DNA from: a virus
Strand: one strand, 5' to 3'
Length of the DNA stretch: 64,000 bases
Virus record (IMG/VR): IMGVR_UViG_3300045988_180675
Coordinates: 135,478-199,477 of that record
Shown here in pieces: positions 36,761 through 59,043 of the stretch. Below the pieces are notes generated by a model. The model made no database searches and was not told the origin of the DNA. It was given only the letters and a program-made list of their open reading frames with translations. Both the position numbers and the translations under genes were made by a program. Positions within the stretch are counted from its first letter, which is position 1. Every line of letters begins with the position of its first letter.

Positions 36761-36854
36761 TTTTCCTCCTTAGCCCTCTTCGGCTTTTTTATTTTCTGCC
36801 TTATTTAACAACGTTCTCCATAATCATCAAATAAAGTCATATTTATTATGCGAG
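36761..36854 (-). promoter_or_regulatory. class-2 conserved leader, copy B
   Basis: The core at 36814..36853 is nearly identical to 8354..8393. A hairpin agcc-ctcttc-ggct (36772..36785) abuts the SD. Confidence 0.6.
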
Positions 36855-36864
36855 AAATAAGAAA

Positions 36865-36891
36865 TGAAAAAAGGATGTTTTACAACATCCT
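36865..36891 (-). terminator. Rho-independent terminator after 36899..40954
   Basis: Stem aggatgtt/aacatcct (36872..36879 / 36884..36891) plus a T-run on the minus strand. Confidence 0.75.
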
Positions 36892-45287: not shown

Positions 45288-45354
45288 ATCATTTTCCTCC
45301 TTAGCCTATCAGCTTTATCCATGATCATCAAATAATTACAATTGTATTATGCAA
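45288..45354 (-). promoter_or_regulatory. class-2 conserved leader, copy C (shorter)
   Basis: The core at 45316..45354 (tatccatgatcatcaaataattacaattgtattatgcaag) is related to copies A and B. A hairpin agct-gata-ggct (reverse complement of 45303..45314) abuts the SD. Confidence 0.55.
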
Positions 45355-45382
45355 GAAATAAGAAATTAAAAAAAAGAAGAGA

Positions 45383-48300
45383 TTAATTCTCTTCTTCTTT
45401 CTTTCTACGCTTTCCAAATAAGAAGAATAATAGAATGCTGATAATAGCTACAATGCCGATCGCAATCTTTGACCAAATCCCGTTAATGAAACGTGTGAAC
45501 CAATTTGAAGAAACAAGCACTTTGATTTCTTCTGATTCTCCCTGGTTTCCTGCTGCATCTACAGTTACAACTTTTAGTGTCTGCCATTTATCTGATTCAT
45601 GCAAGATATAGGACATGTTTCCATCGTTCTTCGCTACCTCTTTAGCATTGAAGTCTTGTACCTCTTCGCCATTTAGATAAACTTTGGCTGTACCTAGTGC
45701 AATGTTATCTGAAAGCTTAATCCCCACTGTCATTTCCTGATCAGAATATAGTTTTCCGTTTTCAATACCAGTAATGACTGCACTTGGATTTGTCTTGTCA
45801 ATTACAAACTTAACATTCACCTTTTTGATCTGATTTGACTGCTTGTTGCCTGCTTCATCTTCAGAAGAAACAATGATTTCATAAGTTCCTTCTTTTTCGA
45901 ATAGCGAGCTTGGTAACTTGTACTCATATCTATTCCAAGTTTCTTCGTTTGTCTTATTAAGCTTATACTCATTTGCCTTCAAGATCGTTGACTTGCCATC
46001 ATGTAAGACTGTTACCTCCTGTTTGATCAACTTGTTTGGGTTGATCTCATAGAGTGTAATGTCTTGTCCTGACTTGTGATAGATTCCCTCAACAAATGCC
46101 TTACTATCTTTTGATAGTTCGTATGTGGAGCCAAATCTATTCACAGAGAATGTGATCGACTTCGTTGTGGTGTTGTTAGCTTTATCCGTTGCAGTGGCTG
46201 TAAGAGTATATACATCATCATTTTCTTCAATATGTTCAAAATCTGGCAATGTTACTTGAACGCCATTTTGATTGACTAAAACAGAACCACTCACTCTTAC
46301 TTCAGGATGTTTTTGACCTTTTAATGTCAATACAATATTTTCTGCATTAAAATTAACGTCTGTCATTGTTACAACAGGTTGAACAACATCTCGATTCGCT
46401 GAGTTTTCTTCTACACCAGAGAATGTAATCACTGGAGCGACCTTATCAATTGTAAATTGTTCTTTACTAAATGTAGGGGCACTATTTCCAGCTAGATCCA
46501 TTGCATTTAATGTAAAATTGTAATCTCCATCTGCATCAAACGTTAGCGTTGCAGTATGTACATCTCCATTGTGGCTCCAACCACTCAATGTTGGAGAAGC
46601 AATTCCTTGACCATTTAGTGTTGCAATAACAGCTGCGGTCGTAGCTGCTTCATTGAAGTTCTTTTCTGTAACCGTGATCGTAGCAGTTTGCGTTGAATTG
46701 AAGTATTTTCCTTCACTCATTGCTACCGAGATAGATGGCTTTGTTTGATCGATTGTGAATCTATCAGTTTGACCATATTCTGAACGATTTCCAGCCTTAT
46801 CTTCAACTGCAAAATCCAATGTGGCTTTCGTATCATTTGCAAATGTAACGGTTAAGATATTTACATTTTCATCTGAACTATCTGTTCCAACTTGCCAATT
46901 ACTGATCGAAGTGTATCCAACAGTCTTTAAACTAGCAAGTGATGGATCAAAGTTTCTTTCATATACCTTGATTGTCGCTGTACGAGGAGCATTATAATAC
47001 TTTCCGTTTTGCACATTTTGGTTATCATAAGAAATCTCAATTCTTGGTGCAGTTGTGTCGATCTTGTATACAAAATCCTTTTCAACTTTATTTCCAGCAT
47101 AATCTTCACCAGTGATATGAAGAACAACGTTGTTGCTGTTATTCTTGCTGGCATCGATCTTGATATTTCCAGAAATGCCTCTAACCTTGGCTTCTTCATT
47201 TGTGAATTCGCCAGATTGAGTAACCTCACCATTACTTGATACTGTATAGGATAATTTCTTCATACCTGCAAATACGCCGATTCCACCATTGTCTGGATCA
47301 GAAACAGAAACATTTACATCAATATCAGAGTTATATACTTCTTTTTGCTCTTGCTTGATTGTTACGATAGGCTCGTTAGGGTTTGCCTTATCAACAACAA
47401 ATCCGCCATTAGAAGAAATATATGTGATATTCCCTGCCTTATCTGTGATCTTTTGATAAATAACAGCATTTCTATCTGCGGAAATCACGACATCCTCTGT
47501 TACTGGACTCCAATTCATCTTAGAAAAATCTGTAGATGCATTAAATGTTTGTGCCGCATCAGAAGGAGCATCCAGAATTGCATACTCAATCGATTTCACA
47601 CCAGAAATCTCATCTGCTGCATTTAATACAAAGTGTAAGTCATTCATGTGGAATAAATTAAAGATAAATTTCTTTAGACCACTTTGCTTCTCAATATCTT
47701 CTACAGCTTGATAATAATCCTTTTCCTCATTTCCTTGTTTTACTTTGATTGTTCCAGTAGGGGCTGTATTATCAATTGTAAAATAGTATTTTCCAAGCTC
47801 GACTTTATTTCCAGCTTCATCCTGATAAATTGCCTTGATCGCATAATTACCATTGGAAGTAAACTTACCAATATTTAATTTATGTATCGAGTTTTCCGTA
47901 GTCCAAGAACCCTGAGCTGGTTGTGTATAGTTGATCGTTTCTCCAGATGAATTCGTTACAGAAACTTCAATATTAACTCTACTAGAGTCGAATCTATCTT
48001 TAGCTTTTTCTGTCCATCCTTCTGAGTCACCATCAAAATCTTCTACAGAAATTTCTGCATTGACACTGTTAATTGTGTAATATGGGTTCTCTTTATCTTC
48101 TGATAATTCAATTGCCTCGTTATTATCACCTGTTAATTTCATTATGACTTTTGGCTTATTTGTATCAATAACAAAGTCCGTCTTAGCACGAGTTCCTTCC
48201 GTATATTTAACACCACCTGGGTTTGTATAGATACCACCTGTTAAGAAAGATGAATCCCATATATATTGTTCTTTATTAAATTCTATAAACCCATCATCTT

Positions 48301-51109
48301 CACCTAGTTCGAATTGGTAGGTATTAGTTCTTTCATTTGTATACGTTTCTTCATTTTGATCTGCTTGTGAATCAATTCGATCTTGTTTTAATTTAATACC
48401 ATTCACTCGACCATTTTTAATATCTTCAAGATTAAAGAGATGAACCGCCCCAGTCCCAGTTGGAGAATCTTGGAATAATAGTTTAACATCGTTTTCGTTG
48501 AAATTTCTTCCTCTATAAGTAATGTTCATTACTCGTTTTTGGTTGAAGAATTTCTCATTTTCTGGTTCATTTTGAAGATATGTGATCGTCATTTCTCGAT
48601 CAAGCTTATCAACAATGATATTCTTGTATTCTTCTGTTTGAACAACGTTTCCAGCTCTATCAAAAGCTTCAACCTGAATCGAAACATTATTGCTATCAAC
48701 GCTAATATTTCCTTCGATATTGATTACTTTGTTGGACTTCTTGCCACGAGACATATTTTCATCTGTTACTGTCTTTTCATCACTTGAATAAAGCTCATCT
48801 TTTGTTAATGTAAAAGAATTTGTTTTAGGTTCTTCTGATGTGAGTTTTACACCTTTATCCTTGACTGTAACAACGACGTGATCAATACCAGAGCTTTCAT
48901 ATTTTGGTCCATCTTCTATTCTGATGGTATATGGTCTATTACGTCCGAGACTATCTGGATAGAGATTTATAACTGGCGGTGTTGTATCTACTACAATACC
49001 GTTAGATGTGGTAATAACTTCGTTACCAACATTATCGGTCGCTTTAACAAGTACGATATATGTACCTTCTCTTTCGCTACTTATTTCGATATTTCCATCT
49101 GAAGGAAGAGTTTGCCAACCTGATGTGTTTGCTTCTCTAACAATATCAGCTTCCTGGCTATCTTTAGAAGGTGCAGTAACAACTTTGTATTCAACATTTT
49201 TAACGCCACTATCAGCGTCGTTTACATCAACGTGTAATCTGTAGCCATCTTTACCTACAAACTTATTGAATTCTAGCTCGCCATTGTTTGATATCTTGTT
49301 GCCTTTGACATCTGTAAACTTCCCATTATCGAAATTAACTGTAGGCAGTGTTGCATCAACTTTTAATAATCCATCTGGAATTGTCGTTTCACCTGATCTT
49401 GTTGCAGGGCTACTTGTGTTTCCTAGATAGAATTGGTTTGTAACATCTCCAGTTGTTGCGTCATCTTTAATTGATAATGTATTTGAATATGTTCCATCCT
49501 CTTGCTTTACATTGACACTATTAAATAAGCCTTCATTGTCATTTGCTTCAAATTCAACTTCAGCTCCTGGACGAACGTAGGTTGTATTACCAGATTTATA
49601 GACACTGGAATTATCACTATTTTTTACCTTGATCTTGCTTTGAATCTTTTGGTCGTTCATTGTGCTTGCTGTGACATTGATATCAGCACTTGCATCATCT
49701 AAGATCAAGTTCCAATTTCCTACAGAAGCCTGTTTTAAAGATAGTGTAATTGCATTTGTATTATTTCCAACATAATACTTTCCACCTGTGAATGTGGCTT
49801 CTAAATAGTTTTCTACACCATTTTTCTTTAGGAAATCTTTAACATCTTCATCGATATTTAGATTGTCTAGCAAACTGGTTGGGAAATGCCCACTTGATAA
49901 AGACTTCCATTCATTAGAGCCATATTCCACTGTAATGTCCTTAATAGATAAATGGGCATCTTTCTTAGTGATAGTAACATCTGGACCACTTGTGAAAGAC
50001 TCGGTAAAAGAATACTTATCAGAACCTGTAACATTAATATCGGACAATGTTGCATGATGATTTCCGACTTCTTTTCCATCGAGAGTTGCTGTTGCAGTAA
50101 TGTCAATATGATCAGATCCAACAATTCCCTTTGCTGCCTTTACATGTCCATTTAATTGCAACTGATTGTTATCATCATATACCTTCTGGACGGTATCCCA
50201 TTCAATATCCTGTGATGTGATCGTTCCAAGATTCTTCTTGTTGACATTTATCCTTACAGATACCTCTGTAGCTTTATAACGAGGTGTATCTTCCGTTTTC
50301 ACATTGATTACGGTCTCACCAACACCATTCACTACGACATCGTTTCCATTAATAGATACACTGTTTCCAGATGTAACCGTATATGTGACAGAACCAGTAT
50401 AATCACTCGGTAGGTCTACCAATGTGTTTTTAGCGAAACTTGCATCTCCATAAACCTTTTCCTGATCATGTTTGACCATTGGTACATCGACCTTTTGATA
50501 GCGGGCAAGTGTTTTTGTTGTATTTGCGTCTGTTAACACAAATTCGCCTTCTGCATCTGGAGAATCTGCAATATTAAGTCTATACTTAATGATTTTGTTC
50601 ATTTCCTGACCAGAAAAATCAAAAGAACCATTTGCATAAGGAATTGTTAATGCATTTCCTTTGCTATCTGTAAATTGAATATCTGTGTCTGCAATGACAT
50701 TACCAGTATCGAAGTTGAAAGCAATCTTTCCGCCCGTCTTAGTTGCGGACACGAAATTTTCTTTAATCGTATCCCCAAACTTGAACTGTCCTTCGATCGG
50801 CTTTGAACCTGCATTTGTTAAGCGATAATAGAACACATCATTACTATCATGCGTTTCTGCAATATTGATATAGTCCTTTTCATCTTCATTTGACAACGTG
50901 AAAGCAACAGGAGTCGTACGTCCTGCATCTTTGAATAATTGTATATCTGTTGTTGTTAAGTGGAGCTTGGTTGATCCACTTGTAATACTCATCTGGCTTT
51001 TACCGTTTGTTCTAGTTTCAGCATTTACAAGTAATACACTTGGGTTAGCTGTAGAAATAACCGTCATCCCAGCCAGTGCCGTAGCGATAATTCGTTTTGA
51101 TCGAGTCAT
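45383..51109 (-). CDS. giant Ig-like-repeat surface protein (1908 aa) with C-terminal TM anchor
   Basis: Signal peptide followed by a long series of beta-rich repeats (recurring ...D.AGN.... / ...TAP.I... / ...DKT.P... boundaries typical of bacterial Ig-like domains). C-terminal TM plus KRRKKEEEN. No LPXTG. Confidence 0.75.
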   Translation of the reverse strand: MTRSKRIIATALAGMTVISTANPSVLLVNAETRTNGKSQMSITSGSTKLHLTTTDIQLFKDAGRTTPVAFTLSNEDEKDYINIAETHDSNDVFYYRLTNAGSKPIEGQFKFGDTIKENFVSATKTGGKIAFNFDTGNVIADTDIQFTDSKGNALTIPYANGSFDFSGQEMNKIIKYRLNIADSPDAEGEFVLTDANTTKTLARYQKVDVPMVKHDQEKVYGDASFAKNTLVDLPSDYTGSVTYTVTSGNSVSINGNDVVVNGVGETVINVKTEDTPRYKATEVSVRINVNKKNLGTITSQDIEWDTVQKVYDDNNQLQLNGHVKAAKGIVGSDHIDITATATLDGKEVGNHHATLSDINVTGSDKYSFTESFTSGPDVTITKKDAHLSIKDITVEYGSNEWKSLSSGHFPTSLLDNLNIDEDVKDFLKKNGVENYLEATFTGGKYYVGNNTNAITLSLKQASVGNWNLILDDASADINVTASTMNDQKIQSKIKVKNSDNSSVYKSGNTTYVRPGAEVEFEANDNEGLFNSVNVKQEDGTYSNTLSIKDDATTGDVTNQFYLGNTSSPATRSGETTIPDGLLKVDATLPTVNFDNGKFTDVKGNKISNNGELEFNKFVGKDGYRLHVDVNDADSGVKNVEYKVVTAPSKDSQEADIVREANTSGWQTLPSDGNIEISSEREGTYIVLVKATDNVGNEVITTSNGIVVDTTPPVINLYPDSLGRNRPYTIRIEDGPKYESSGIDHVVVTVKDKGVKLTSEEPKTNSFTLTKDELYSSDEKTVTDENMSRGKKSNKVINIEGNISVDSNNVSIQVEAFDRAGNVVQTEEYKNIIVDKLDREMTITYLQNEPENEKFFNQKRVMNITYRGRNFNENDVKLLFQDSPTGTGAVHLFNLEDIKNGRVNGIKLKQDRIDSQADQNEETYTNERTNTYQFELGEDDGFIEFNKEQYIWDSSFLTGGIYTNPGGVKYTEGTRAKTDFVIDTNKPKVIMKLTGDNNEAIELSEDKENPYYTINSVNAEISVEDFDGDSEGWTEKAKDRFDSSRVNIEVSVTNSSGETINYTQPAQGSWTTENSIHKLNIGKFTSNGNYAIKAIYQDEAGNKVELGKYYFTIDNTAPTGTIKVKQGNEEKDYYQAVEDIEKQSGLKKFIFNLFHMNDLHFVLNAADEISGVKSIEYAILDAPSDAAQTFNASTDFSKMNWSPVTEDVVISADRNAVIYQKITDKAGNITYISSNGGFVVDKANPNEPIVTIKQEQKEVYNSDIDVNVSVSDPDNGGIGVFAGMKKLSYTVSSNGEVTQSGEFTNEEAKVRGISGNIKIDASKNNSNNVVLHITGEDYAGNKVEKDFVYKIDTTAPRIEISYDNQNVQNGKYYNAPRTATIKVYERNFDPSLASLKTVGYTSISNWQVGTDSSDENVNILTVTFANDTKATLDFAVEDKAGNRSEYGQTDRFTIDQTKPSISVAMSEGKYFNSTQTATITVTEKNFNEAATTAAVIATLNGQGIASPTLSGWSHNGDVHTATLTFDADGDYNFTLNAMDLAGNSAPTFSKEQFTIDKVAPVITFSGVEENSANRDVVQPVVTMTDVNFNAENIVLTLKGQKHPEVRVSGSVLVNQNGVQVTLPDFEHIEENDDVYTLTATATDKANNTTTKSITFSVNRFGSTYELSKDSKAFVEGIYHKSGQDITLYEINPNKLIKQEVTVLHDGKSTILKANEYKLNKTNEETWNRYEYKLPSSLFEKEGTYEIIVSSEDEAGNKQSNQIKKVNVKFVIDKTNPSAVITGIENGKLYSDQEMTVGIKLSDNIALGTAKVYLNGEEVQDFNAKEVAKNDGNMSYILHESDKWQTLKVVTVDAAGNQGESEEIKVLVSSNWFTRFINGIWSKIAIGIVAIISILLFFLFGKRRKKEEEN

Positions 51110-51136
51110 TTAACCGACCTCCTTTTTCTTACATCT

Positions 51137-51149
51137 TATATTATGCTAT
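51137..51149 (-). promoter_or_regulatory. Box-1, exact copy
   Basis: Exact 13-mer, 27 nt upstream of the ATG at 51109. The extended identity AAAAATAGCATAATATAAGATGTA is shared with the copy at 4907. Confidence 0.6.
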
Positions 51150-51182: not shown

Positions 51183-54107
51183 TTAATCCATCTTTTCTTT
51201 TTTGTATAACAATACCATATATCCAACGATAGCAAACAAGGATGATAAACATAGGAATGTGAATCCATACATCGCTGCACCAGTGTCTGCTGGCTTGCTA
51301 CTTGGCTTGTTAGCTGTATTGTACTTCTTTGCAAAATCTAGTTCGTGATTTGCCTCGTATTTGACATAGATTATCATGTCATCGTTTACGACTTCTTCGA
51401 ATGTAACAGGATCTGTCATCGCTGCATCCTTGTAGAACCCGATAAAATCATATCCATTAATTTTGATGCCAGAAAACCTTGGCAGAACTTCTCCAAATGT
51501 AACATCAAACTCATTGTATCTTGGACCATCTGCAATATTTGCAATGAAGGAAATATGTCCAGATGTCTTATTCGTTTCGACACGTACATCTAATGAAGCT
51601 TCCTTCTTCGTGATGTCATATTCTACTGTTCCTACGATATGCATTCCATCTGGAGCAGTTAGATCTTGGTTTGTGATCTTATCACCAATATTCTTCTTTA
51701 AATCTTCTTGTTTAACGATGTTTTCATCTTTATCTTTATAAATGATTTTAACGACAGCATCGCTAGATTCGTTTTCTTCTACAGTTCTTTCGATCTTGTC
51801 ATCTTTTCCTGTAACAGTGTACTCATCGAACTTGTCAACAAAGTGCATTCCGTCTGGAGTAGATGGTAGTTCTGATTCTTTGATGTTGCTACCAATCTTT
51901 TTCTTTAATTCTTCAGCCTTAATTTCTTTGCCATTCTTGTCCTTGTAGACAACCTTAACTGTTACCTCGTTATAATCAACTGCTCTTTCAATTTTGTTGT
52001 CTTTTTCAGTAACGGTATAATCTGTTGGATCACCAATAAAATGTGTTCCATCTGGTGCAGTCAGATCGTTATCTGTTACCTTTTCGCCGACCTTCCTTGC
52101 AACATCTTCTTCTTTTACAACTTTTCCATCTGAATCCTTATAGATAACGTGTACAATTACTTGTGTTGCTGTGTCATCGTCTACAAGTCTTGTGATTTGG
52201 TCATTCTTTCCTGTTACAGTGTAGCCTGTAAATTCATCAATGAAGTGCATGTTGCTTGGTAAGGCAGGTAAATCTTCGCTTGTTACAACATCCTTGACCT
52301 TCTTGGTGATAACTTCTGTCTTTACAACATCTTCACCTTTCTTATAGATGACGCCAATTTCTACTGTGTTGTATTCGATCAATGCTACGAACTTGTTGTC
52401 ATCTTCGTTTTCGGACACTGTATGATTCACCTCTTCTGCTAAATGAGTTCCTTCTGGAGCATGTAAGTCATCATTTGTGATCTTAGAGCCGATCGGTTTT
52501 ACAATTTCCTCTGTTCCAGCAGTAATACCATTTGCGTCATTGTAAGTGATGAATGATTTAGCGGTATTCATTGCTAGTGTGCGTTCAATCTTATTGACGC
52601 CATCAACCACTTTATAGCTTACGAATTCATCTGTAAAATGCATGTTTGGTAGGGCTGGGGGAAGATCTGATTCTTTGATAACCTGGTTTGTATCAAACTC
52701 AAAATCTTGGGCAAATGCTTGGCTTCCGTCTTCTAGTTTATATACAACTGAAACCATTGCCTTTCTTTCTGCTGGAGAAACAGGAGTATTTCGTTTTACA
52801 ATACGAACAATTTCGTTGTTGTTGTCTGTGATCGTGTATGTAGAGAATGTATCCTTAAATTCTAAGTTGCTTTGTAGTTTAGGTAGATCGGACTCTTTAA
52901 TAACACTATTTGGTAACTCCCATTGTGTCTTTTCTAATATAGTTTCGCCATCTTCATATTTATAGAGAATGTGCAACTGTTTCTTGTCATCAAGCGTCAA
53001 CTCAATATCTTCTCCACGAGTTCGTCCTGCTGGAAATTCATTTTCTACAATATAGTAACTTCTGTTTTTATCAAAATTTGCTCTATTTAAGATGCCAGCT
53101 TCTGAATATGTAGTAATATCCGCAGATAGTGTGTCTTTTGTTGCAAGGCGGTAATCGTTTTCCATTGGTCCATTAAATACCTTTAATGCCTTGTTATCTT
53201 CGATTTTTTCTTTTGACATTACAGATGAGAATTCTGAATTGTTTATAAATTCATCTGTAAAATCACGATGGTCTTTCCAACGGTATGTGATCTTAGCAAA
53301 TGATGGAGTTTGCTTCCATGGTTTTAGTAGTCCTCTATCATTGTGATCTTCATCTCCAAAATATCCGAATCTGATTTGAGGGATGTTCCAACCTGCTCTA
53401 ATTGGGAATGTTGTATGCACGCCCTTTTTATCAAATTGTAACAATTCGAAAGATGGGTTGGATGCCTTCAGATTATCGTTCCAAACCTTTAACTCTGGAT
53501 TCGCTTCGTAAATAGCGGCTCTGATTTGCTCCTTATCATAATTTGTTACATCTTCTAGTCTGAATGCTTCACTACTGTTTTCTAGTGAGTACAATCTGAT
53601 ATTACGATTGACCTTAATGATGTTATAAGAGATTATATTTGCTGCTCTGTTTCCAGTAGTGGTCTTAACAACATTTTCTCCATATTGTAAGAAGTAGTCG
53701 TTATACTTTTCTTGTGCTGGTACGATTGATGCACGATATGCAAAAGTATTGCCGTCTGGGTTTTCTTCGATTTGGACCTCTGGAGTTGTAAATTCGTAAT
53801 TTTTGTTTCCTACAGTTTGATTCAGCTCTGCATTATCACTAATGTAAGTTTTGGAAATAGTCTTAGACTGATTACCAATTGAATATTCAAACTTAAACCC
53901 GATGTTTCCGTCTGCAAAATATTTTGCAAATTCGGTGTTCTCGTCTGAACCTTCATTTTTTTCTTTGAAAAGAAATACCGTTTGATGGGACGTTGTTTCT
54001 TCTTCAGCATGTACATTTGTGATACTTGGAATGATGCTTGATGTAGACATTAGACCAGCCAGAATTACAGTCGTTAGTCTATTTTTTAAATTCTTTTTTG
54101 TGAACAT
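51183..54107 (-). CDS. repeat-rich surface protein (974 aa after start trimming) with sorting signal PADTG
   Basis: The start is trimmed to MFTKKNLKN (SD AAAGGAG, 7 nt spacing), because the longer ORF would run over Box-1. Signal peptide, seven roughly 66-70-aa repeats (V.YKD..G..VK.E.L.K.[IV]G.K.T..DL.AP[DE]G[MT]H...Y.VT.KD.KIER.V), then PADTG plus TM plus KKEK. Confidence 0.8.
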   Translation of the reverse strand: MFTKKNLKNRLTTVILAGLMSTSSIIPSITNVHAEEETTSHQTVFLFKEKNEGSDENTEFAKYFADGNIGFKFEYSIGNQSKTISKTYISDNAELNQTVGNKNYEFTTPEVQIEENPDGNTFAYRASIVPAQEKYNDYFLQYGENVVKTTTGNRAANIISYNIIKVNRNIRLYSLENSSEAFRLEDVTNYDKEQIRAAIYEANPELKVWNDNLKASNPSFELLQFDKKGVHTTFPIRAGWNIPQIRFGYFGDEDHNDRGLLKPWKQTPSFAKITYRWKDHRDFTDEFINNSEFSSVMSKEKIEDNKALKVFNGPMENDYRLATKDTLSADITTYSEAGILNRANFDKNRSYYIVENEFPAGRTRGEDIELTLDDKKQLHILYKYEDGETILEKTQWELPNSVIKESDLPKLQSNLEFKDTFSTYTITDNNNEIVRIVKRNTPVSPAERKAMVSVVYKLEDGSQAFAQDFEFDTNQVIKESDLPPALPNMHFTDEFVSYKVVDGVNKIERTLAMNTAKSFITYNDANGITAGTEEIVKPIGSKITNDDLHAPEGTHLAEEVNHTVSENEDDNKFVALIEYNTVEIGVIYKKGEDVVKTEVITKKVKDVVTSEDLPALPSNMHFIDEFTGYTVTGKNDQITRLVDDDTATQVIVHVIYKDSDGKVVKEEDVARKVGEKVTDNDLTAPDGTHFIGDPTDYTVTEKDNKIERAVDYNEVTVKVVYKDKNGKEIKAEELKKKIGSNIKESELPSTPDGMHFVDKFDEYTVTGKDDKIERTVEENESSDAVVKIIYKDKDENIVKQEDLKKNIGDKITNQDLTAPDGMHIVGTVEYDITKKEASLDVRVETNKTSGHISFIANIADGPRYNEFDVTFGEVLPRFSGIKINGYDFIGFYKDAAMTDPVTFEEVVNDDMIIYVKYEANHELDFAKKYNTANKPSSKPADTGAAMYGFTFLCLSSLFAIVGYMVLLYKKEKMD
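51575..52990 (-). repeat. seven tandem coding repeats of about 200 bp
   Basis: Repeated peptide modules read in the ORF translation. Confidence 0.6.
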
Positions 54108-54132
54108 TGCTTTACTCCTTTCACTAGTCTTA

Positions 54133-54145
54133 TATATTATGCTAT
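54133..54145 (-). promoter_or_regulatory. Box-1, exact copy
   Basis: Exact 13-mer, 25 nt upstream of the ATG at 54107 and after terminator 54151..54178. Confidence 0.6.
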
Positions 54146-54150
54146 ATTTC

Positions 54151-54178
54151 AAAAAGAAAAGAAGGCTTTTTCGCCTTC
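54151..54178 (-). terminator. Rho-independent terminator closing the kinase cassette
   Basis: Stem gaaggc/gccttc (54161..54166 / 54173..54178) plus a T-run on the minus strand. Confidence 0.7.
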
Positions 54179-54181
54179 TTT

Positions 54182-54781
54182 TTAATTGGCGTTATAAAAT
54201 TCTTCGTCATCGACAACAAATTGGCGTGTCTTCTTGAGTGTTTCTTGTTTTTCTTCACTTCCTTTTGTCTTGAAGGAATCAGCAATATTATTCGTACCAA
54301 GGAATCCTGTCTCATCATCATCCGTGGCTGCTAGAGCGGTTGTTTCTGCTTCACCAAGTTCTCCAGTAGGAGCTTGATTTGCATCCAATAAAGAAGTTTC
54401 CTCTTCTCCTGTAGACAGCATTGTTGTTTCGGTGTTACCACTATCCAATAAAGAGGTTTCTTCTTTCCCACTTTCTAAAGGAATCGGTTCTTTCTGTTCT
54501 TTCTTTATACCTTTTTCTTGAATTGACTTCTTAATGTTTTCTACACGTTTAGAAAGTTCTGCGGAAGAGGAATTTGCATGAGGTTCATTTTTAATTTTTT
54601 GCACTTTCTTCTCTTCCTTTTTTATTCTGCGACTAAAGTTTTTGTCTCGTTGCTTTAAAAGGGCTTTGTAGCCCCATGGCTTCAAAATAAACCCAACGGC
54701 AATAAAAATGATAACAAGCAGCACTCCGATAATCAAACACCAGAATCCGATTATTTTTAATAAGTTTACGGTTTTTAACAT
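54182..54781 (-). CDS. bitopic membrane protein with five cytoplasmic E-T-[ST]-x-L threonine repeats (candidate kinase substrate / FHA ligand)
   Basis: N-terminal TM followed by a basic stretch, then KEETSLLD, NTETTMLS, EEETSLLD, EAETTALA and DDETGFLG within about 55 aa. Confidence 0.7.
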   Translation of the reverse strand: MLKTVNLLKIIGFWCLIIGVLLVIIFIAVGFILKPWGYKALLKQRDKNFSRRIKKEEKKVQKIKNEPHANSSSAELSKRVENIKKSIQEKGIKKEQKEPIPLESGKEETSLLDSGNTETTMLSTGEEETSLLDANQAPTGELGEAETTALAATDDDETGFLGTNNIADSFKTKGSEEKQETLKKTRQFVVDDEEFYNAN

Positions 54782-54786
54782 ATTCT

Positions 54787-56508
54787 CTATTTTTTCTCCT
54801 GTTGATTGCTTCGATCAGAATATACCACGTCTAAATTGCTCTTTGCAGCTTTGATATTTGTCATGATCTGATCATATAACTCAACTTCATCACCCTTTAG
54901 ACCGTGGGACTTTAATTCTTCTGTCTTTTTAGATATTGTATCAAGCTCTGATTTGATATCCTCGATTTTAATACCAGCGTTATAGAAGTTGACACCATTG
55001 GTATTTAATTGAAATGTAAGTTCTTTATAAACAACTAACGCTGTTTTGATATTATCCTTCTTTGCAATATCATCAGAAGAGATATCCATCAATTGCTTAT
55101 AAAAGTTTTTGTAATCGACCTTTGTATCTCCAGCCTTATTTACATTTCCAGATTGGATATAGTAATCTGCGACCTGATAAAACTTCGATGCTCTTTCTTT
55201 CTTTTGTTCTTCTAATGAAGAACTATTTCTTGCGATATCGAACCATGGTTTACTTAACTGCTTGTTTCCATCCGTTTCATAATAGTAAAAGTAGGCTAGT
55301 CCCATATTATACGCAAAATCATCGTATCCTTCTGAATTTCCATCTTTAAATCTATCCTGTACGGTCTTTCCATTTGTCTTATAGCCGACAAGGCTTGTTA
55401 GCTGGTTGGCTTCATTCTGACTAAAGTTTCCATCCTTCAGATATACATTATCCAAAAGTTCATCAAATGCCTCTGCTCTTGTTGGATCCAGTTTAATCGC
55501 ATCTGAGTAATTTTTGATTTGATCTTCATCTGTTACTGAGATACGTGCATTTTGAAGTTCTTCATCATAGGTATTTGCCAATAATGAATCTGCGTATAAT
55601 CTAAGTCCAGTTGAAATCGAACATAATAAGATTCCAACAAATCCGATCGTCATCCATCTATGATACGTTGCTGTCTGCTTCTTTAATGATTCAACCTCAA
55701 GCTCTTGATAATGTTCTAGGGCAAATTCCAATTCTTCTACCGTTTGATATCTATCATCAGGGTTATTTGCAATACATTTTAAAATGATTGATTCAAGACC
55801 AGATGATAGCGTCTTATCAATTCTTCTAATAGGAAGAAATTCATACGGAGGTTTTGTTGGGTTTTTCCCAGTGACAAGATGATACATCGTAGCACCAAGA
55901 TTATAGATATCTGTTCTAGCATCTGATTGATGGTGCTGTTCTCCTTGGAATTGTTCAGGAGCAGCGTAGCCTCTGGTTCCTAAGAAGGTTGTATCTCCAT
56001 CCTGTCCCCCCTTGTATTCTCTTGCTGTACCAAAGTCGATCAACATAATATTTCCATCTGGTTTTAACATGATGTTCCCTGGTTTCATATCACGGTAAAT
56101 GATCGGAGGATTTAGTCCGTGCAGATATTTTAAAACCGAACATATCTGTAATGACCAATCCACGACATCTTCTTGAGATTGTTTTCCCTGCTCTTTCAAG
56201 ATGTCACTCAATGTTCTACCTTCAATATAGTCCATAACGATCAAGAAAGTATCATCCTGATCAAAGATATCGACAATACTAGGTAAATGTTCATGCTTTA
56301 GGTGACGAAGGATATTTGCCTCTGTAACAAGGTTTTGCTTGATGATCTGCGAAGTTGCGGAAGTAGATGTTTTTTTGACTTCCTTAATTGCCCACTGCTT
56401 ATTCACCTTTTCATTGATGGCTAACCAGACCGTACTCATTCCACCTTGTCCAGTTCGGTTAATAATTTTGTATTTGCCATCTACTAGGTCCCCTATTCGA
56501 AGTCCCAT
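54787..56508 (-). CDS. Hanks-type Ser/Thr protein kinase, membrane-spanning, non-PASTA extracellular domain
   Basis: G-loop GQGGMSTVW, AIKEV lysine, catalytic loop YRDMKPGN, DFG, APE. A TM (WMTIGFVGILLCSISTGL) is followed by a roughly 270-aa helical/TPR-like C-terminal region. Confidence 0.9.
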   Translation of the reverse strand: MGLRIGDLVDGKYKIINRTGQGGMSTVWLAINEKVNKQWAIKEVKKTSTSATSQIIKQNLVTEANILRHLKHEHLPSIVDIFDQDDTFLIVMDYIEGRTLSDILKEQGKQSQEDVVDWSLQICSVLKYLHGLNPPIIYRDMKPGNIMLKPDGNIMLIDFGTAREYKGGQDGDTTFLGTRGYAAPEQFQGEQHHQSDARTDIYNLGATMYHLVTGKNPTKPPYEFLPIRRIDKTLSSGLESIILKCIANNPDDRYQTVEELEFALEHYQELEVESLKKQTATYHRWMTIGFVGILLCSISTGLRLYADSLLANTYDEELQNARISVTDEDQIKNYSDAIKLDPTRAEAFDELLDNVYLKDGNFSQNEANQLTSLVGYKTNGKTVQDRFKDGNSEGYDDFAYNMGLAYFYYYETDGNKQLSKPWFDIARNSSSLEEQKKERASKFYQVADYYIQSGNVNKAGDTKVDYKNFYKQLMDISSDDIAKKDNIKTALVVYKELTFQLNTNGVNFYNAGIKIEDIKSELDTISKKTEELKSHGLKGDEVELYDQIMTNIKAAKSNLDVVYSDRSNQQEKK

Positions 56509-57281
56509 TCTTCATCCCCCATTCTAAACGCTAATACCGTGATATTGTCTTTTTCGTTTCTTTCTTTTGATAGCTCTACGATTTTTTCTAATTGAGCTTT
56601 TAGCTCCTCATTAGACTTTGTAGATTCAAGTGAAAGCGTGGACGCCATCTCTTTTTCACTTACGACATGGACAAATCCATCGCTACAAACAAGAAAGAGT
56701 GTGTTGTTGGCGTATTTGCCAGTGTAGAACTGTGGTGATGGAAGTTGATTTCCTGCTCCGCAACATTGCATTAAAACGCTTCTATCTTTATGCGTTAGAG
56801 CCTCTTCTTTTGTGATAGCTTTCGTATCAATCAGATATTGGACAACGCTATGATCATGTGTAATCTGTTCAAGCTCTTTAGAACCTTCATCCAGCTTGTA
56901 ACCACGAGAGTCTCCAACATTGAATGCAATATACATATTCTTCATTACAAACATGCCAACGACGGTTGTTCCGCCTTGTTGCCGTCCAAGCTCTTTTTTA
57001 ATTTCGGTATGTAACTCTTCAGTTGCTTTTGTTATGGAATCTTTGAAACCATCAACGCTAAACCCCTGTTCAAATAACACATTCAAATCACTTACGAACC
57101 AATTCTTAAATTTTTCAACTGCTAAACGTGAAGCAGCTTCTCCACGGGACATTCCTCCCATGCCATCTGCGACCATCGCAAACACAATGAGTTCTCCATC
57201 TAGGCGAGCTGTTTTTAATAAGAGGGCATCTTGGTTTGTCGCCTTTTTGATGCCCTTATCTGTACAATATGCTTTAATCAT
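56493..57281 (-). CDS. PP2C-family Ser/Thr phosphatase
   Basis: NQDALL, VADGMGGMSRGEAAS, VGDSRGY, SDGF and DNITVL motifs. Confidence 0.9.
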   Translation of the reverse strand: MIKAYCTDKGIKKATNQDALLLKTARLDGELIVFAMVADGMGGMSRGEAASRLAVEKFKNWFVSDLNVLFEQGFSVDGFKDSITKATEELHTEIKKELGRQQGGTTVVGMFVMKNMYIAFNVGDSRGYKLDEGSKELEQITHDHSVVQYLIDTKAITKEEALTHKDRSVLMQCCGAGNQLPSPQFYTGKYANNTLFLVCSDGFVHVVSEKEMASTLSLESTKSNEELKAQLEKIVELSKERNEKDNITVLAFRMGDEEWDFE

Positions 57282-57285
57282 AGAA

Positions 57286-59001
57286 CTAGTCCTCGATAAA
57301 TAACTGGAAGCGAACGTTGGAGAATTGAATCAGCATTCCATTTGTTAATTTTACTGGTGTGTATTCTGGAATTGGTCTTCCATTGATATATGTAAAATTC
57401 TTCGAACCGAGATCTTCGATACAAATCTCTCCATCTACGATATGGAACGTTGCATGTGTTCTACTGATCGTTGTATTTCCAGAAATACAATAATCTACCT
57501 TTGCACGCTCTTTACCAATAATGAAACCATCCTTGGTAATGTTTACCTGTTCACCAGTATCCTGTCTGATCATGTATACATTCTTTGTTAATGGAGAACT
57601 TGAAAGCAATGTCGTTCCTTCTGCTCCATCGTCTAAAATATTAGCTCCTTCATCTTCTCTTGCATAATCAAGATCTGTACGAGCTTCTTTTGTAATACGC
57701 ATGCTTCTTGGAGCGGATTGGACTGTAATATCCATGTCATCCATATCAACACGTCTACCTGTCTTATTATCAACTAAGTGTGGATCGTGATTCAAGTTTC
57801 CTAATTCTTGTGAGAAGTCTTCTTCGTAATCTTCTTGTTCTTTTAAGATTTCTGCTTCTAACTTCTGACGCTTCTTCTTTTGAACATTTAATATTGCAAC
57901 GATAATTGCAATTGCTACCACTCCACCAAATACATAAGGCAAGAATGGGAATTTCTGTAACAGTCCTTTTGTTTCAAGAGCATCTTGTGCGTCCTTGATA
58001 TCTGTAACCGCAGCATCAATCTTCTTTTGTGTACGGCTGTCATCTTCTAATAGGTCCTTACCTGCCTTGATTGCGTCATTTAACTTCTCAACAGATTGAG
58101 GTGTGTATTCACTAGTATCAACATCTTCAGCTGACTTGATTGCCTTTTCAAGCTCATCGGTATCTAAAGAAGACAATTCTTCCTTCTTACGTTTTTCATC
58201 AAGCTTTTCTTTATTTTCTTTTTCCTTTTCTGTTGAAACCTGACCTTCTGTCTTATATTCAATTCCGTTTTCACTCAGTACACTTTGGATACGCTCGTTT
58301 GGAATAAAGTATGAGTTGTTATCTACAGAAGAGGATACGATTCCCATAATACTGTACTTACTATTTACGATTGGGGATCCTGTTGCTACTGCCGTATTGC
58401 CTGCAAAGATATATTCCTCGCTGGTTTGTGACTTTGCTGTTACAGTTCCATCGAGCGATACAACGGCGTTCTTTTCTACATACAATGCTTTTGCTGGAGC
58501 ATTTGTTTCTAGTCCTGCATTGGTATCCGTGAAACTCATGTATTGAGCTTGCTTTGATGCAAGACCGATAACCCCAACCCCTTGTTTAAAATTCTTGGTT
58601 GTGATTTCAACCTTGGAGCCTGTAGCGGTAGAAACTTTGATCTTAATGTGTGGAGCTGTTTCCTTCTCACTCTTCAGTGAAATTCCTAGCTTTTCATAAG
58701 CATCTCCTTTTTCAGATAAAATCTTTTTGTATAAAAGGCTAGATGTTGTATCATCCGTTAAGGTTTCGGTTGTTACCATATCACTTTCTGAAACCATGGT
58801 ACCTGTACCTGATGCCCATACATCAAAGGAACCATCAGAGAACTCATATCCGATCTGAATATTCATGATCGCCTTTTCTGGAATTGCCTCGATCGTATCA
58901 GCTGTCTTAGAAGTGCCTTCTTCCGCATGAACCATTGTTGGCATCATAACCAAACAAGAAGCAGCTACAACTTTTAATATATTCTTTTTAATATTGAACA
59001 T
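57286..59001 (-). CDS. bitopic FHA-domain protein with extracellular trypsin-like pseudo-protease domain
   Basis: Signal peptide and an ectodomain resembling S1-family proteases. The His position reads TTETL and the Ser position reads ATGSPIVN instead of G.SGGP. A coiled coil and TM (FPFLPYVFGGVVAIAIIVAIL) follow. A cytoplasmic EGTTLLS motif is followed by an FHA domain (IIGKER...ISRTHA...SKNFTYINGR). Confidence 0.8.
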   Translation of the reverse strand: MFNIKKNILKVVAASCLVMMPTMVHAEEGTSKTADTIEAIPEKAIMNIQIGYEFSDGSFDVWASGTGTMVSESDMVTTETLTDDTTSSLLYKKILSEKGDAYEKLGISLKSEKETAPHIKIKVSTATGSKVEITTKNFKQGVGVIGLASKQAQYMSFTDTNAGLETNAPAKALYVEKNAVVSLDGTVTAKSQTSEEYIFAGNTAVATGSPIVNSKYSIMGIVSSSVDNNSYFIPNERIQSVLSENGIEYKTEGQVSTEKEKENKEKLDEKRKKEELSSLDTDELEKAIKSAEDVDTSEYTPQSVEKLNDAIKAGKDLLEDDSRTQKKIDAAVTDIKDAQDALETKGLLQKFPFLPYVFGGVVAIAIIVAILNVQKKKRQKLEAEILKEQEDYEEDFSQELGNLNHDPHLVDNKTGRRVDMDDMDITVQSAPRSMRITKEARTDLDYAREDEGANILDDGAEGTTLLSSSPLTKNVYMIRQDTGEQVNITKDGFIIGKERAKVDYCISGNTTISRTHATFHIVDGEICIEDLGSKNFTYINGRPIPEYTPVKLTNGMLIQFSNVRFQLFIED

Positions 59002-59030
59002 GTTCTTTTCTCACTTTCTTTCTAGTCACT

Positions 59031-59043
59031 TATATTATGCTAT
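59031..59043 (-). promoter_or_regulatory. Box-1, exact copy
   Basis: Exact 13-mer, 29 nt upstream of the ATG at 59001. Confidence 0.6.

What the first reader, a model, noticed from the sequence alone, without database searches (positions are those of the whole stretch)
54182..59001. Threonine-phosphorylation cassette (FHA sensor, PP2C, membrane kinase, Thr-repeat membrane protein) embedded in a conjugation/adhesin island
Four co-directional genes are tightly packed: a 4-nt gap at 57281/57286, a 16-nt overlap at 56493/56508 and a 5-nt gap at 54781/54787. They are bracketed by a Box-1 site (59031) and a terminator (54151..54178), so they look like one transcription unit.

All partners of a reversible phospho-threonine switch are present:
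- an apparently active Hanks kinase (YRD, DFG and APE intact) with a TM and a non-PASTA ectodomain;
- a PP2C phosphatase;
- a bitopic protein whose cytoplasmic end is an FHA domain;
- a bitopic protein with five E-T-[ST]-x-L repeats.

Three of the four proteins span the membrane, so the input is probably extracytoplasmic. The logic resembles the PpkA/PppA/Fha1 pathway that gates type VI secretion. Here the cassette sits between giant surface-protein genes and a Gram-positive T4SS on a mobile element. I do not know of a described phospho-threonine checkpoint for Gram-positive conjugation or mating adhesion.
Basis: partly seen in the sequence, partly recalled or inferred. Interest (0 to 1): 0.85.

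Follow-up and report, generated by a model that had tools for sequence, protein, structure and literature searches.

The report
Surface-filament-linked threonine phosphorylation sensor module
A real kinase, phosphatase, phospho-threonine reader and multi-site substrate gene set sits on a conjugative element, but in relatives it always accompanies a giant Ig-like surface protein, as in recently described type VII secretion loci, and not the DNA-transfer machinery.

Summary
The 199-aa membrane protein carries five [DE]-T-x-x-L repeats (0.26 expected by chance). A conserved promoter-like box and a terminator bracket the unit.

Comparative genomics changes the interpretation. In every relative examined, down to 27% identity, the kinase travels with a small membrane protein bearing T-x-x-L/F repeats in most loci. 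[quoted passage not shown]

The same block (kinase, PPM phosphatase, single-helix membrane protein, giant Ig-like protein, FHA protein) was described in 2024 as the TseD/F/H-K/I/J components of type VII secretion subtypes d/e/j. The Agathobacter rectalis copy matches at E 5e-133, 4e-48 and 3e-99.

Of the contexts sampled across the kinase family, five are plainly chromosomal and lack both T4SS and T7SS genes. Only one of 72,556 plasmids carries the kinase's sensor domain.

The window holds no T7SS core genes. This is therefore a detached variant of a known module carried on a large T4SS element. A role in conjugation is neither shown nor excluded.

The parts
59030..59043 (-). Box-1 promoter-like motif (ATAGCATAATATAA) 29 nt upstream of the FHA-protein start codon
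   Evidence: 10 copies in the window against 1.56 expected, all on the minus strand. Those I placed lie 20-45 nt upstream of gene starts. Sequence read.
57286..59001 (-). Bitopic FHA reader protein (571 aa). It has a signal peptide, an S1C-fold pseudoprotease ectodomain, a coiled coil plus FIVAR, a TM helix (about 351-376), a disordered linker with an invariant G-T-T-L-L (T463/T464/L466), and an FHA domain (494-560).
   Evidence: Pfam. AF2 model and Foldseek to HtrA1/DegS/RsgI9. Catalytic triad replaced. FHA pThr-site residues S513, R514, H516 and N535 are kept; the canonical Arg is Lys497.
56493..57281 (-). PP2C/PPM phosphatase (262 aa), TseF-like
   Evidence: Pfam PP2C_2 1.2e-13. 38% identity, E 4e-48, to the A. 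rectalis T7SS-locus phosphatase. The motifs DGMGG, GDSR, SDG and DN are readable in the translation.
54787..56508 (-). Receptor Ser/Thr kinase (573 aa), TseD-like. It has a cytoplasmic Hanks kinase domain, a TM helix (about 289-312) and an all-helical ectodomain with a TPR-like repeat (320-573).
   Evidence: Pfam 1.2e-49. Invariant catalytic residues in 40 homologues. AF2 pLDDT 88. TPR-like match. The ectodomain family has 233 representative clusters. 43% full-length identity, E 5e-133, to the A. rectalis kinase.
54182..54781 (-). Small membrane protein (199 aa), TseH/TseK-like. It has an N-terminal TM helix, a basic stretch, then an acidic tail with five [DE]-T-x-x-L repeats. It is the probable multi-site kinase substrate and FHA docking scaffold.
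   Evidence: Motif enrichment. An equivalent protein with 2-7 such repeats (one weak copy in L035) follows the kinase in most relatives with sequence there.
54157..54182 (-). Intrinsic-terminator-like hairpin after the 199-aa gene
   Evidence: 10-bp stem, 4 GC pairs, T-run; sequence.
51183..54152 (-). Repeat-rich surface protein (the real start is probably the ATG near 54107). It is a lineage-specific insertion between the cassette and the giant protein, with its own Box-1 at 54132-54145.
   Evidence: It occupies this position only in the 98% tier. In the 69% tier it lies about 8 kb upstream of the cassette, and in more distant tiers it is absent from this position. No Pfam domain.
45383..51109 (-). 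Giant Ig-like surface protein (1908 aa), TseI-like. It has a signal peptide, Big_3/Big_13 repeats and a C-terminal TM anchor with a short basic tail, and no LPXTG. It has its own Box-1 at 51136-51149. It is the conserved partner of the kinase.
   Evidence: Pfam. Sequence. Synteny in all tiers. Giant Big_13/Big_3 proteins lie next to family kinases. 32% identity over 832 aa, E 3e-99, to the A. rectalis Ig-like protein.

Best explanation
This is a five-gene envelope signalling module built around a giant Ig-like surface filament. Its parts are:
- the filament itself (TseI-like, 45383-51109);
- a receptor Ser/Thr kinase with a helical, TPR-like ectodomain (TseD-like);
- a PP2C phosphatase (TseF-like);
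- a small membrane protein whose cytoplasmic tail carries five [DE]-T-x-x-L sites (TseH/K-like);
- a membrane-anchored FHA reader.

Proposed mechanism (inferred, not shown). The state of the filament or of the cell surface is sensed outside the membrane by the kinase ectodomain. The catalytically dead S1C/FIVAR ectodomain of the FHA protein may contribute. The kinase then autophosphorylates its activation loop (D-T-T-F-L-G-T). It also phosphorylates the same motif on the 199-aa scaffold and at T463/T464 of the FHA protein's linker. The FHA domain binds these pT-x-x-L sites and assembles a membrane patch. PP2C resets the system.

In T7SSd/e/j loci the likely output is the FHA-bearing EssC ATPase. 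No T7SS core is present in this window. The module is carried as accessory cargo on a roughly 160-200 kb T4SS element and sits behind the element-wide Box-1 motif. Its output here is unresolved. I think it acts first on the filament or the envelope, and only secondarily, if at all, on DNA transfer.
For: - Domains and active-site residues.
- Conserved gene order with the giant protein across four identity tiers in about 35 loci.
- The repeat-bearing membrane protein is present after the kinase in most relatives even where its sequence is unalignable. Examples are L030 with 6x EDTTVL, A. rectalis with 2x DETTVL and L047 with 7x G-T-x-[IL]-[FL].
- The motif is enriched far above chance.
- The same [DE]-T-x-x-L sits in the kinase activation loop across the family (D/E 35/40, T 28/40, L 31/40).
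- An invariant T-T-x-L lies in the FHA protein's linker.
- A kinase plus giant Big_13/Big_3 pair is seen in all sampled contexts long enough to show it.
- Homology to the A. rectalis T7SS-locus block. That locus has EssC, YukD, WXG100 and a DUF6382-FHA protein.
- Published description of TseD/F/H/I/J/K.
- Experimental precedent for an Ig-like filament signalling through a kinase/phosphatase pair to a pThr on an FHA protein (the Esr pathway of oral Actinobacteria, PMC13622651).
- From my own knowledge, not tested here: FHA domains select on the pT+3 residue, with Leu/Ile classes known. GarA/OdhI use an E-T-T-S self-docking motif. Mycobacterial STPKs favour acidic residues upstream and a hydrophobic residue at +3.
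Against: - No phosphorylation, binding or phenotype data exist for any member of this block.
- The FHA domain has Lys in place of the canonical phosphate-binding Arg.
- The AF2 model of the FHA protein is of low confidence overall (pLDDT 58).
- Several chromosomal relatives have the kinase and giant protein without an FHA protein or PP2C within 10 kb, so the FHA reader is not universal.
- Natural variants of this same element carry TnpB-type insertions in or next to the PP2C gene (L001, L016, L011). The cassette may therefore be dispensable or decaying in some hosts.
- Only about 79 kb of the roughly 200 kb element was examined, so a T7SS core elsewhere is not excluded.
Confidence: 0.6

Rival explanations
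1. Conjugation or mating checkpoint. The module senses recipient contact and licenses the Gram-positive T4SS or the mating adhesins of this element through pThr-FHA interactions.
For: - The cassette lies inside a T4SS/adhesin element.
- It is retained with the same flanks in the 98% and 69% tiers.
- It shares the Box-1 motif with gene starts across the T4SS and adhesin region.
- No FHA or active-kinase component has been described for Gram-positive T4SS. Only the pseudokinase TraF of pIP501 is known (PMC13037476), so the niche is open.
Against: - Family-wide, the module associates with the giant Ig-like protein and with chromosomal or T7SS contexts, not with T4SS.
- Only 1 of 72,556 plasmids has the sensor domain, and that record is non-mobilizable.
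- No T4SS protein in the window has an FHA domain or an enrichment of [DE]TxxL.
- Variants with an IS-disrupted PP2C persist.
Confidence: 0.13
2. It is the regulatory and envelope half of a T7SSe/j-type secretion system. The core (EssC ATPase, WXG100, YukD) would lie elsewhere on the element or in the host chromosome, and the module would gate toxin secretion.
For: - Strong homology to the block inside the A. rectalis T7SS locus.
- Garrett et al. list TseD, F, H, I, J and K as core T7SSe components. They note pThr-competent FHA domains on TseC.
Against: - No FtsK/EssC, WXG100 or YukD domain was found in any window ORF scanned, including small intergenic ORFs, or in the 10 kb beyond the low-coordinate end of the window.
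- Chromosomal kinase plus giant-protein pairs likewise lack T7SS genes within 10 kb.
Confidence: 0.15
3. Threat or defence sensor. Like the actinobacterial Esr pathway, the filament would detect an attacking phage, epibiont or competitor and switch on a protective response for the host or the plasmid.
For: - It has the same logic as Esr: an Ig-like filament, a kinase/phosphatase pair, and a pThr in a disordered segment of an FHA protein.
- The cassette genes diverge faster (65-81% identity) than their flanks (83-89%) between the two closest tiers.
- The kinase and PP2C give generic matches to PADLOC defence models.
Against: - No MoxR, vWA, beta-propeller or transglutaminase partner was found, and no effector gene was identified in the window.
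- The PADLOC matches cover only the universal catalytic domains.
- The divergence contrast is modest.
Confidence: 0.1

Closest known systems
TseD/TseF/TseH-TseK/TseI/TseJ block of type VII secretion subtypes d, e and j (Garrett et al., microLife 2024, PMC11217815)
   Same: - A membrane kinase with a conserved active site and a helical extracellular C-terminus.
- A PPM phosphatase.
- A single-helix membrane protein with an unstructured cytoplasmic stretch.
- A giant protein with a Sec signal peptide, Ig-like domains and a C-terminal anchor.
- A separate FHA protein.
- Direct homology to the A. rectalis copy: kinase 43% full length, PP2C 38%, giant protein 32% over 832 aa.
   Different: - No EssC ATPase, WXG100 or YukD genes in the 64-kb window or the flanks examined.
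- The FHA protein is bitopic with an S1C-fold pseudoprotease plus FIVAR ectodomain, instead of the cytoplasmic DUF6382-FHA.
- The setting is a T4SS element.
- The T-x-x-L repeat and its match to the kinase activation loop do not appear in the passages of that paper I read.
Esr threat-sensing pathway of oral Actinomycetales (bioRxiv Sep 2026, PMC13622651)
   Same: A surface filament of Ig-like repeats signals through a Ser/Thr kinase and phosphatase pair. The result is threonine phosphorylation in a disordered segment of an FHA-domain output protein. The pathway is often linked to Esx/T7SS.
   Different: - Esr has MoxR, vWA, a terminal beta-propeller sensor and a transglutaminase anchor. None was found here.
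- It occurs in a different phylum.
- No sequence homology was tested.
- The resemblance is in how it works, not in membership.
T6SS threonine phosphorylation pathway (PpkA/PppA/Fha1; in Agrobacterium, PpkA phosphorylates TssL, which then binds Fha)
   Same: A membrane kinase phosphorylates a membrane protein. An FHA protein binds the phospho-site. A PP2C reverses it. (Summarised, otherwise from my own knowledge.)
   Different: - This is a Gram-positive organism with no T6SS genes.
- The kinase ectodomain is different.
- The scaffold is multivalent rather than a single site on a machine component.
GarA/OdhI self-docking FHA switches of Actinobacteria
   Same: An acidic E-T-T-x motif just upstream of an FHA domain in the same polypeptide. 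The FHA domain here is detectably similar to GarA (E 1e-5).
   Different: GarA is a soluble metabolic regulator.
Plasmid-borne kinase/FHA pair PknQ-MupFHA on Mycobacterium ulcerans pMUM001 (PMC4238996)
   Same: A Ser/Thr kinase and an FHA protein encoded together on a megaplasmid.
   Different: - It is an actinobacterial virulence plasmid.
- I saw no mention of a giant Ig-like partner, repeat scaffold or T4SS link in the title and abstract I read.
- Homology was not tested.

Membership tests
T7SSe (Garrett et al. 2024) | [quoted passage not shown] | tested here: not met
   No FtsK_SpoIIIE hit in any window ORF of 100 aa or more, nor in the 10 kb beyond the low-coordinate end of the window. The rest of the roughly 200-kb element was not seen.
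T7SSe (Garrett et al. 2024) | WXG100 proteins (TseA, TseA2) and a YukD-like ubiquitin-fold protein (TseB) | tested here: not met
   No WXG100 or YukD Pfam hit, including among six small intergenic ORFs scanned at E<=1.
T7SSe (Garrett et al. 2024) | TseD membrane Ser/Thr kinase with a helical extracellular C-terminus, and TseF PPM phosphatase | tested here: met
   Homology to the A. rectalis T7SS-locus proteins at E 5e-133 and 4e-48.
T7SSe (Garrett et al. 2024) | TseI giant protein with a Sec signal, Ig-like domains and a C-terminal TM helix | tested here: met
   (E 3e-99 to the A. rectalis Ig-like protein).
T7SSe (Garrett et al. 2024) | TseH/TseK single-helix membrane protein with a short unstructured cytoplasmic region | tested here: inconclusive
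   The architecture and gene position match. The sequence is low-complexity, so homology cannot be shown, and I could not tell TseH from TseK.
T7SSe (Garrett et al. 2024) | TseJ: N-terminal DUF6382 plus a C-terminal FHA domain, cytoplasmic | tested here: not met
   The FHA domain is present, but the N-terminal part is a secreted S1C-like domain plus FIVAR and a TM helix, with no DUF6382 hit. The A. rectalis protein does match DUF6382 weakly (26.0 bits against a cut-off of 26.7).
Hanks-type Ser/Thr kinase (active) | Gly-rich loop, VAIK Lys, alpha-C Glu, catalytic Asp/Lys/Asn, DFG and APE | tested here: met
   K42, D140, K142, N145, D158, G160, P184 and E185 are invariant and E63 nearly invariant in 40 homologues. 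From my own knowledge, the YRD variant of HRD also occurs in PKA-type active kinases.
FHA domain competent for phospho-threonine binding | Conserved Gly-Arg, Ser-Arg/Lys-x-His and Asn residues of the pThr pocket | tested here: inconclusive
   S513, R514, H516, N535 and G496 are conserved. The Arg after Gly is replaced by the invariant Lys497. Binding was not tested.
S1C (HtrA/DegS) serine protease | Chymotrypsin fold with a His-Asp-Ser catalytic triad | tested here: not met
   The fold is met (Foldseek E 2e-9, TM 0.73). The triad columns are T/G/T in the window protein, against H/D/S in the L035 relative. It is a pseudoprotease.
T6SS threonine phosphorylation pathway | Co-location with T6SS core genes (TssL/TssM, Hcp, VgrG, etc.) | tested here: not met
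   No T6SS family appears in any Pfam scan of window ORFs.
Esr pathway (PMC13622651) | MoxR ATPase, vWA protein, beta-propeller-tipped filament, transglutaminase | tested here: not met
   None of these domains appears in the Pfam scans of window ORFs. Sequence homology to Esr proteins was not tested.
Gram-positive conjugative T4SS component | Consistent co-occurrence with VirB4/VirD4 across relatives | tested here: not met
   T4SS genes accompany the cassette only in this element lineage, and even there I saw them only in the window. Five family members are in chromosomal settings without T4SS genes within 10 kb. The 10-kb flank limit means the 32% tier could not be judged.

The most novel reading that the evidence does not exclude
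The giant-filament/kinase module is an autonomous cell-contact sensor. This conjugative megaplasmid has captured it to detect a recipient cell and license mating, through the T4SS or the sortase-anchored adhesins, using a multivalent pT-x-x-L/FHA scaffold. That would be the first phospho-threonine checkpoint for Gram-positive conjugation.
Probability: 0.12. Interest if true: 0.85.

Novelty: new variant of a known kind. Interest (0 to 1): 0.5.

Why it matters
First, the kinase/phosphatase/FHA/giant-protein block listed in 2024 as 'core' to several new type VII secretion subtypes also exists on its own. It occurs in chromosomes and on a T4SS element, always next to the giant Ig-like protein. That argues the block is a portable surface-sensing unit that can be plugged into different outputs. 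This fits the 2026 finding that an Ig-like filament plus kinase and FHA pathway senses epibionts in Actinobacteria.

Second, the analysis yields a concrete, testable molecular hypothesis that I did not find in the papers I read. The small membrane protein is a multivalent [DE]-pT-x-x-L scaffold. Its motif copies the kinase's own activation loop and the FHA protein's linker.

Third, a mobile element carrying such a sensor could spread a surface-signalling capability among gut and oral Firmicutes.

Tried and rejected
- **Plasmid and phage databases.** Megablast of the cassette against PLSDB found nothing. tblastn of the FHA protein found only FHA-domain-level hits in B. thuringiensis plasmids, whose context is unrelated. 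The kinase ectodomain has no phage hit.
- **Word-indexed protein searches.** They returned very few homologues. The exhaustive HMMER search was needed to see the family.
- **PADLOC.** The hits are generic to any Hanks kinase or PP2C, so I did not take them as evidence of defence.
- **32% tier flanks.** Pfam on ten flanking ORFs of locus L030 gave no informative hit, so that tier's replicon type stays unknown.
- **Solved structures.** The PDB sequence search with the giant protein found nothing.
- **Kinase model.** I did not run a fold search on it, because kinase-domain hits would swamp the ectodomain.
- **'Trypsin_2' as an active protease.** Rejected after the triad check.
- **The A. rectalis record as a plasmid example.** Rejected as evidence because it carries rplA, rplK, nusG and secE.

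Full report
**1.

The four minus-strand ORFs are at the stated coordinates, with the stated 4-nt gap, 16-nt overlap and 5-nt gap. Pfam confirms the domains:
- FHA (2.8e-15, residues 494-560) and FIVAR in the 571-aa protein;
- PP2C_2 (1.2e-13) in the 262-aa protein;
- Pkinase (1.2e-49) in the 573-aa protein.

In an alignment of 40 kinases that share its ectodomain, the catalytic residues K42, D140, K142, N145, D158-F-G and P184-E185 are invariant. The kinase is therefore very probably active.

The 199-aa protein has an N-terminal hydrophobic helix followed by a basic stretch, so by the positive-inside rule its tail is cytoplasmic. The tail carries five [DE]-T-x-x-L repeats. That is 5 observed against 0.26 expected, with 0 of 20,000 shuffles reaching 5. 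The density is about four times that of any other protein in the window.

A hairpin plus T-run follows the last gene. ATAGCATAATATAA occurs 10 times with at most 2 mismatches, against 1.56 expected. All copies are on the coding strand, and those I placed lie 20-45 nt upstream of gene starts. They include the start of the FHA gene (59030), the 989-aa gene (54132) and the giant Ig-like gene (51136).

The surrounding window is indeed a Gram-positive conjugation and adhesin region. It holds VirD4, VirB4, PrgI, topoisomerase III, a sortase, SpaA/LPXTG giants and a peptidoglycan-hydrolase giant.

**2. What the proteins look like**

*FHA protein.* It has a signal peptide and an ectodomain whose AF2 model matches HtrA1, DegS and the S1C sensor domain of the C. 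thermocellum anti-sigma factor RsgI9 (E about 2e-9, target TM about 0.7). The model is modest, with pLDDT 58 overall and 65-75 in this domain. A relative at 27% identity (locus L035) keeps the His/Asp/Ser motifs (TCDHV, DFAVL, GNSGGP). The window protein and its closer relatives have T/G/T or other residues at those columns. The window protein is therefore a pseudoprotease, that is, a binding or sensing domain. After FIVAR and the TM helix comes a poorly predicted linker with an invariant D-x-G-x-[EG]-T-T-[LVI]-L, and then the FHA domain. The FHA domain aligns with pThr-binding FHA domains, a GGDEF-protein FHA (1.4e-8) and GarA (1e-5). It keeps S513-R514-x-H516 and N535. The canonical Gly-Arg is Gly-Lys, and this Lys is invariant in the family.

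*Kinase.* The model is confident (pLDDT 88.4). Its extracellular part is entirely helical, with one clear TPR-like repeat.

*Giant protein.* It has a signal peptide, Big_3/Big_13 repeats and a C-terminal TM helix followed by KRRKKEEEN, with no LPXTG.

**3. Relatives change the picture**

Metagenome, genome and contig look-ups gave more than 40 related loci.

*Gene order.* A tblastn synteny table shows the order FHA protein, PP2C, kinase, a gap, then the giant Ig-like protein. This order is kept in identity tiers of 98%, 69%, 32-34% and 27-31%. In the more distant loci no other window protein is conserved.

*The gap gene.* The gap always holds a small N-terminal-TM protein with repeated [DE][DE]-T-x-[VILMF]-L motifs. 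There are 3-5 copies in the close tiers, 4-6 in the 32% tier and one weak copy in L035. The 989-aa protein that separates the cassette from the giant gene in the window is a lineage-specific insertion.

*The kinase family.* An exhaustive HMMER search with the kinase ectodomain alone found 233 representative clusters, 102 of them at E<=1e-10. The full-length hits (many are fragments) are about 550-600 aa, with the domain at the C-terminus. Sampling their contexts gave these results:

| Locus | Setting | Arrangement |
|---|---|---|
| L043 | oriC-proximal chromosome (yidC, jag, mnmE, mnmG, rsmG, parAB, serS) | kinase, 115-aa TM protein (GETTII, EETVLL), Big_13 giant 7 kb downstream |
| L045 | between dnaN-recF-gyrBA-murT-gatD and fumarase | kinase overlapping a 1771-aa Big_3 giant |
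| L050 | beside PPDK, Psd and UbiA | PP2C, kinase, 150 aa, 2976-aa Big_13 |
| L051 | between the butyrate operon and rpsF-ssb-rpsR | kinase, 1455-aa giant |
| L035 | beside GGDEF/EAL genes | full module |
| L047 | MGE-like (IS200/605, SSB, SpaA/TQ giant) | PP2C, kinase, 254-aa protein with seven G-T-x-[IL]-[FL], 1466-aa giant |

Only one of 72,556 PLSDB plasmids has the ectodomain, and no phage record does.

The invariant partner of the kinase is therefore the giant Ig-like protein. PP2C and the repeat protein are frequent, and the FHA protein occurs in a subset. T4SS genes accompany the module only in the window's own lineage.

**4. It is a known block**

The single PLSDB hit, A. rectalis NZ_CP143948, has this order: an Ig-like giant, PP2C, kinase, a 139-aa TM protein (DETTVL twice), then a 346-aa FHA protein with DGTTVL before the FHA domain. 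It lies beside WXG100/EsxB genes, an LXG-type TNT toxin, EsaB/YukD and EssC. That FHA protein weakly matches DUF6382. The record also carries rplA, rplK, nusG and secE, so it is chromosome-like.

This fits the description by Garrett et al. (microLife 2024) of T7SSe, and of the related T7SSd and T7SSj:
- TseD: membrane kinase with a helical extracellular C-terminus;
- TseF: PPM phosphatase;
- TseH and TseK: single TM helix plus a short unstructured cytoplasmic region;
- TseI: giant protein with a Sec signal, Ig-like domains and a C-terminal TM helix;
- TseJ: DUF6382 plus FHA.

The window proteins are clearly homologous to the A. rectalis ones. The kinase is 43% identical over its full length (5e-133). 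PP2C is 38% identical (4e-48). The giant protein is 32% identical over 832 aa (3e-99).

However, no EssC-type ATPase, WXG100 or YukD domain is present in any window ORF, including small intergenic ORFs. None is present in the 10 kb beyond the low-coordinate end of the window either. In the passages of the paper I read, the authors proposed regulation by threonine phosphorylation but reported no experiments on it. In the library I searched, only that paper uses the T7SSd/T7SSe names.

**5. How it most likely works**

*Shown by sequence:*
- an apparently active kinase, a phosphatase and an FHA domain with a mostly intact pThr pocket;
- a multivalent acidic T-x-x-L tail;
- the same [DE]-T-x-x-L immediately before the invariant activation-loop G-T of the kinase family (D/E 35/40, T 28/40, L 31/40);
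- the same motif in the FHA protein's own linker.

*Inferred.* The kinase autophosphorylates and phosphorylates these look-alike sites. The FHA domain docks on pT-x-x-L. FHA selectivity for the pT+3 residue, the GarA/OdhI E-T-T-S self-docking switch, and the acidic-upstream, hydrophobic +3 preference of mycobacterial kinases are established knowledge that I did not test here. PP2C erases the marks.

The input is probably extracytoplasmic and tied to the giant filament, because the kinase plus giant pair is the conserved core.

There is an experimental analogue in another phylum. In the Esr pathway, a surface filament of 14 Ig-like domains is needed for phosphorylation of T152 in the disordered region of the FHA protein EsrG. 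That switches on transcription and Esx secretion against Saccharibacteria (PMC13622651). The Agrobacterium T6SS case (PpkA phosphorylates TssL, which then binds Fha) is the closest mechanistic parallel for a membrane substrate (cited).

**6. What about conjugation?**

In favour:
- the cassette is retained with the same neighbours in two tiers of this element;
- it sits behind the same Box-1 motif as gene starts across the T4SS and adhesin region;
- the literature I could search describes no FHA protein or active kinase in a Gram-positive T4SS, only the pseudokinase TraF of pIP501.

Against:
- the family-wide distribution described above;
- no FHA domain or motif enrichment in any T4SS protein of the window;
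- TnpB-type insertions in relatives of the same element. In L001 and L016 they lie between the FHA and PP2C genes and remove the first 41 or 6 codons of PP2C. In L011 a degenerate copy lies between PP2C and the kinase.

I therefore rate a dedicated mating checkpoint as possible but unlikely (about 0.12-0.13).

**7. The element**

The nearest named source is an uncultured Solobacterium MAG. The window's own contig is 199.8 kb, and related contigs are 160-206 kb. One of these is listed in IMG/VR. A DnaE-type polymerase lies about 15 kb beyond the low-coordinate end of the window. This looks like a conjugative megaplasmid or a very large ICE. I did not settle which.

**8. Verdict**

The finding is a new variant of a known kind, a T7SSd/e/j-type kinase and giant-filament module detached from T7SS. 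It has a membrane-anchored pseudoprotease-FHA reader and sits on a T4SS element.

Points I did not find in the papers I read are:
- the stand-alone distribution of the module;
- the [DE]-T-x-x-L scaffold that matches the activation loop;
- the pseudoprotease reader.

Interest is 0.5.

Noticed in passing
window 240, 4906, 11370, 15896, 28873, 41099, 43873, 51136, 54132, 59030 (all minus strand): Element-wide 14-nt box ATAGCATAATATAA with a -10-like core. Those I placed lie 20-45 nt upstream of gene starts. There are 10 copies against 1.56 expected. This suggests one shared promoter type, and perhaps one regulator, for the whole transfer, adhesin and signalling gene set.
   Followed up: partly
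window 8300-8412, 36761-36873, 45307-45373: A second family of conserved 67-113-nt intergenic repeats (77-81% identical). Two copies end at the starts of the 204-aa and 239-aa genes. The third lies just after the giant Ig-like gene and upstream of the Cas_VVA1548-like ORF. They contain a Box-1-like CGCATAATAAATA core.
   Followed up: no
window 41148-41342 (-): A 64-aa SecE homologue (Pfam SecE 4.6e-9) is encoded on the element just downstream of the topoisomerase III gene. An element-borne Sec subunit next to several giant secreted proteins is unusual.
   Followed up: no
window 45012-45287 (-): A 91-aa ORF directly after the giant Ig-like gene matches Cas_VVA1548, a putative CRISPR-associated protein family (2.9e-23). 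I looked for no CRISPR array or other cas genes.
   Followed up: no
L001 7419-8744; L016 12434-13759; L011 11336-12573 (relatives of window 56493-57285): TnpB-like (IS605/IS1341-type) elements are inserted in or beside the PP2C gene in three near-identical copies of this element. L001 and L016 share a 441-aa ORF at 90% nucleotide identity, and L011 has a degenerate copy. The PP2C N-terminus is truncated in L001 and L016. A different TnpB sits at window 5196-6335 and replaces part of the 989-aa gene in L017 and L019.
   Followed up: partly
L035 8863-10581: A 27%-identity relative of the FHA protein keeps an intact S1C catalytic triad and has three tandem G-E-T-x-L-L motifs before its FHA domain. 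The ancestral reader may therefore have been an active extracellular protease controlled from inside, or signalling inward.
   Followed up: partly
L009/L052 (NZ_CP143948.1, Agathobacter rectalis 'plasmid unnamed1'): This 252-kb PLSDB 'plasmid' carries rplA, rplK, nusG, secE, fliD and a full T7SS locus. It looks like a chromosomal segment or chromid rather than a plasmid.
   Followed up: no
L041 (IMGVR_UViG_3300045988_178166) = L012 contig; L053: A 178-kb contig carrying this same T4SS and adhesin element is catalogued as viral in IMG/VR. The window's own 199.8-kb contig also encodes a DnaE-type Pol III alpha subunit and a HipA_C-like protein beyond the low-coordinate end of the window. The replicon type (megaplasmid, ICE or phage-plasmid) is unsettled.
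   Followed up: no
window 54182-59001 vs L020: Between the two closest tiers, the cassette proteins are 65-81% identical (scaffold TM and basic parts 44-47%). The flanking 388-aa, HTH and giant proteins are 83-89% identical. This suggests faster evolution or allelic exchange of the signalling genes.
   Followed up: partly
window 51183-54152 (-): The 989-aa repeat protein ends in K-P-A-D-T-G followed by a hydrophobic stretch and KKEKMD. This may be a non-canonical sortase sorting signal. The listed TTG start overlaps the terminator, so the ATG near 54107 is the likelier start.
   Followed up: no
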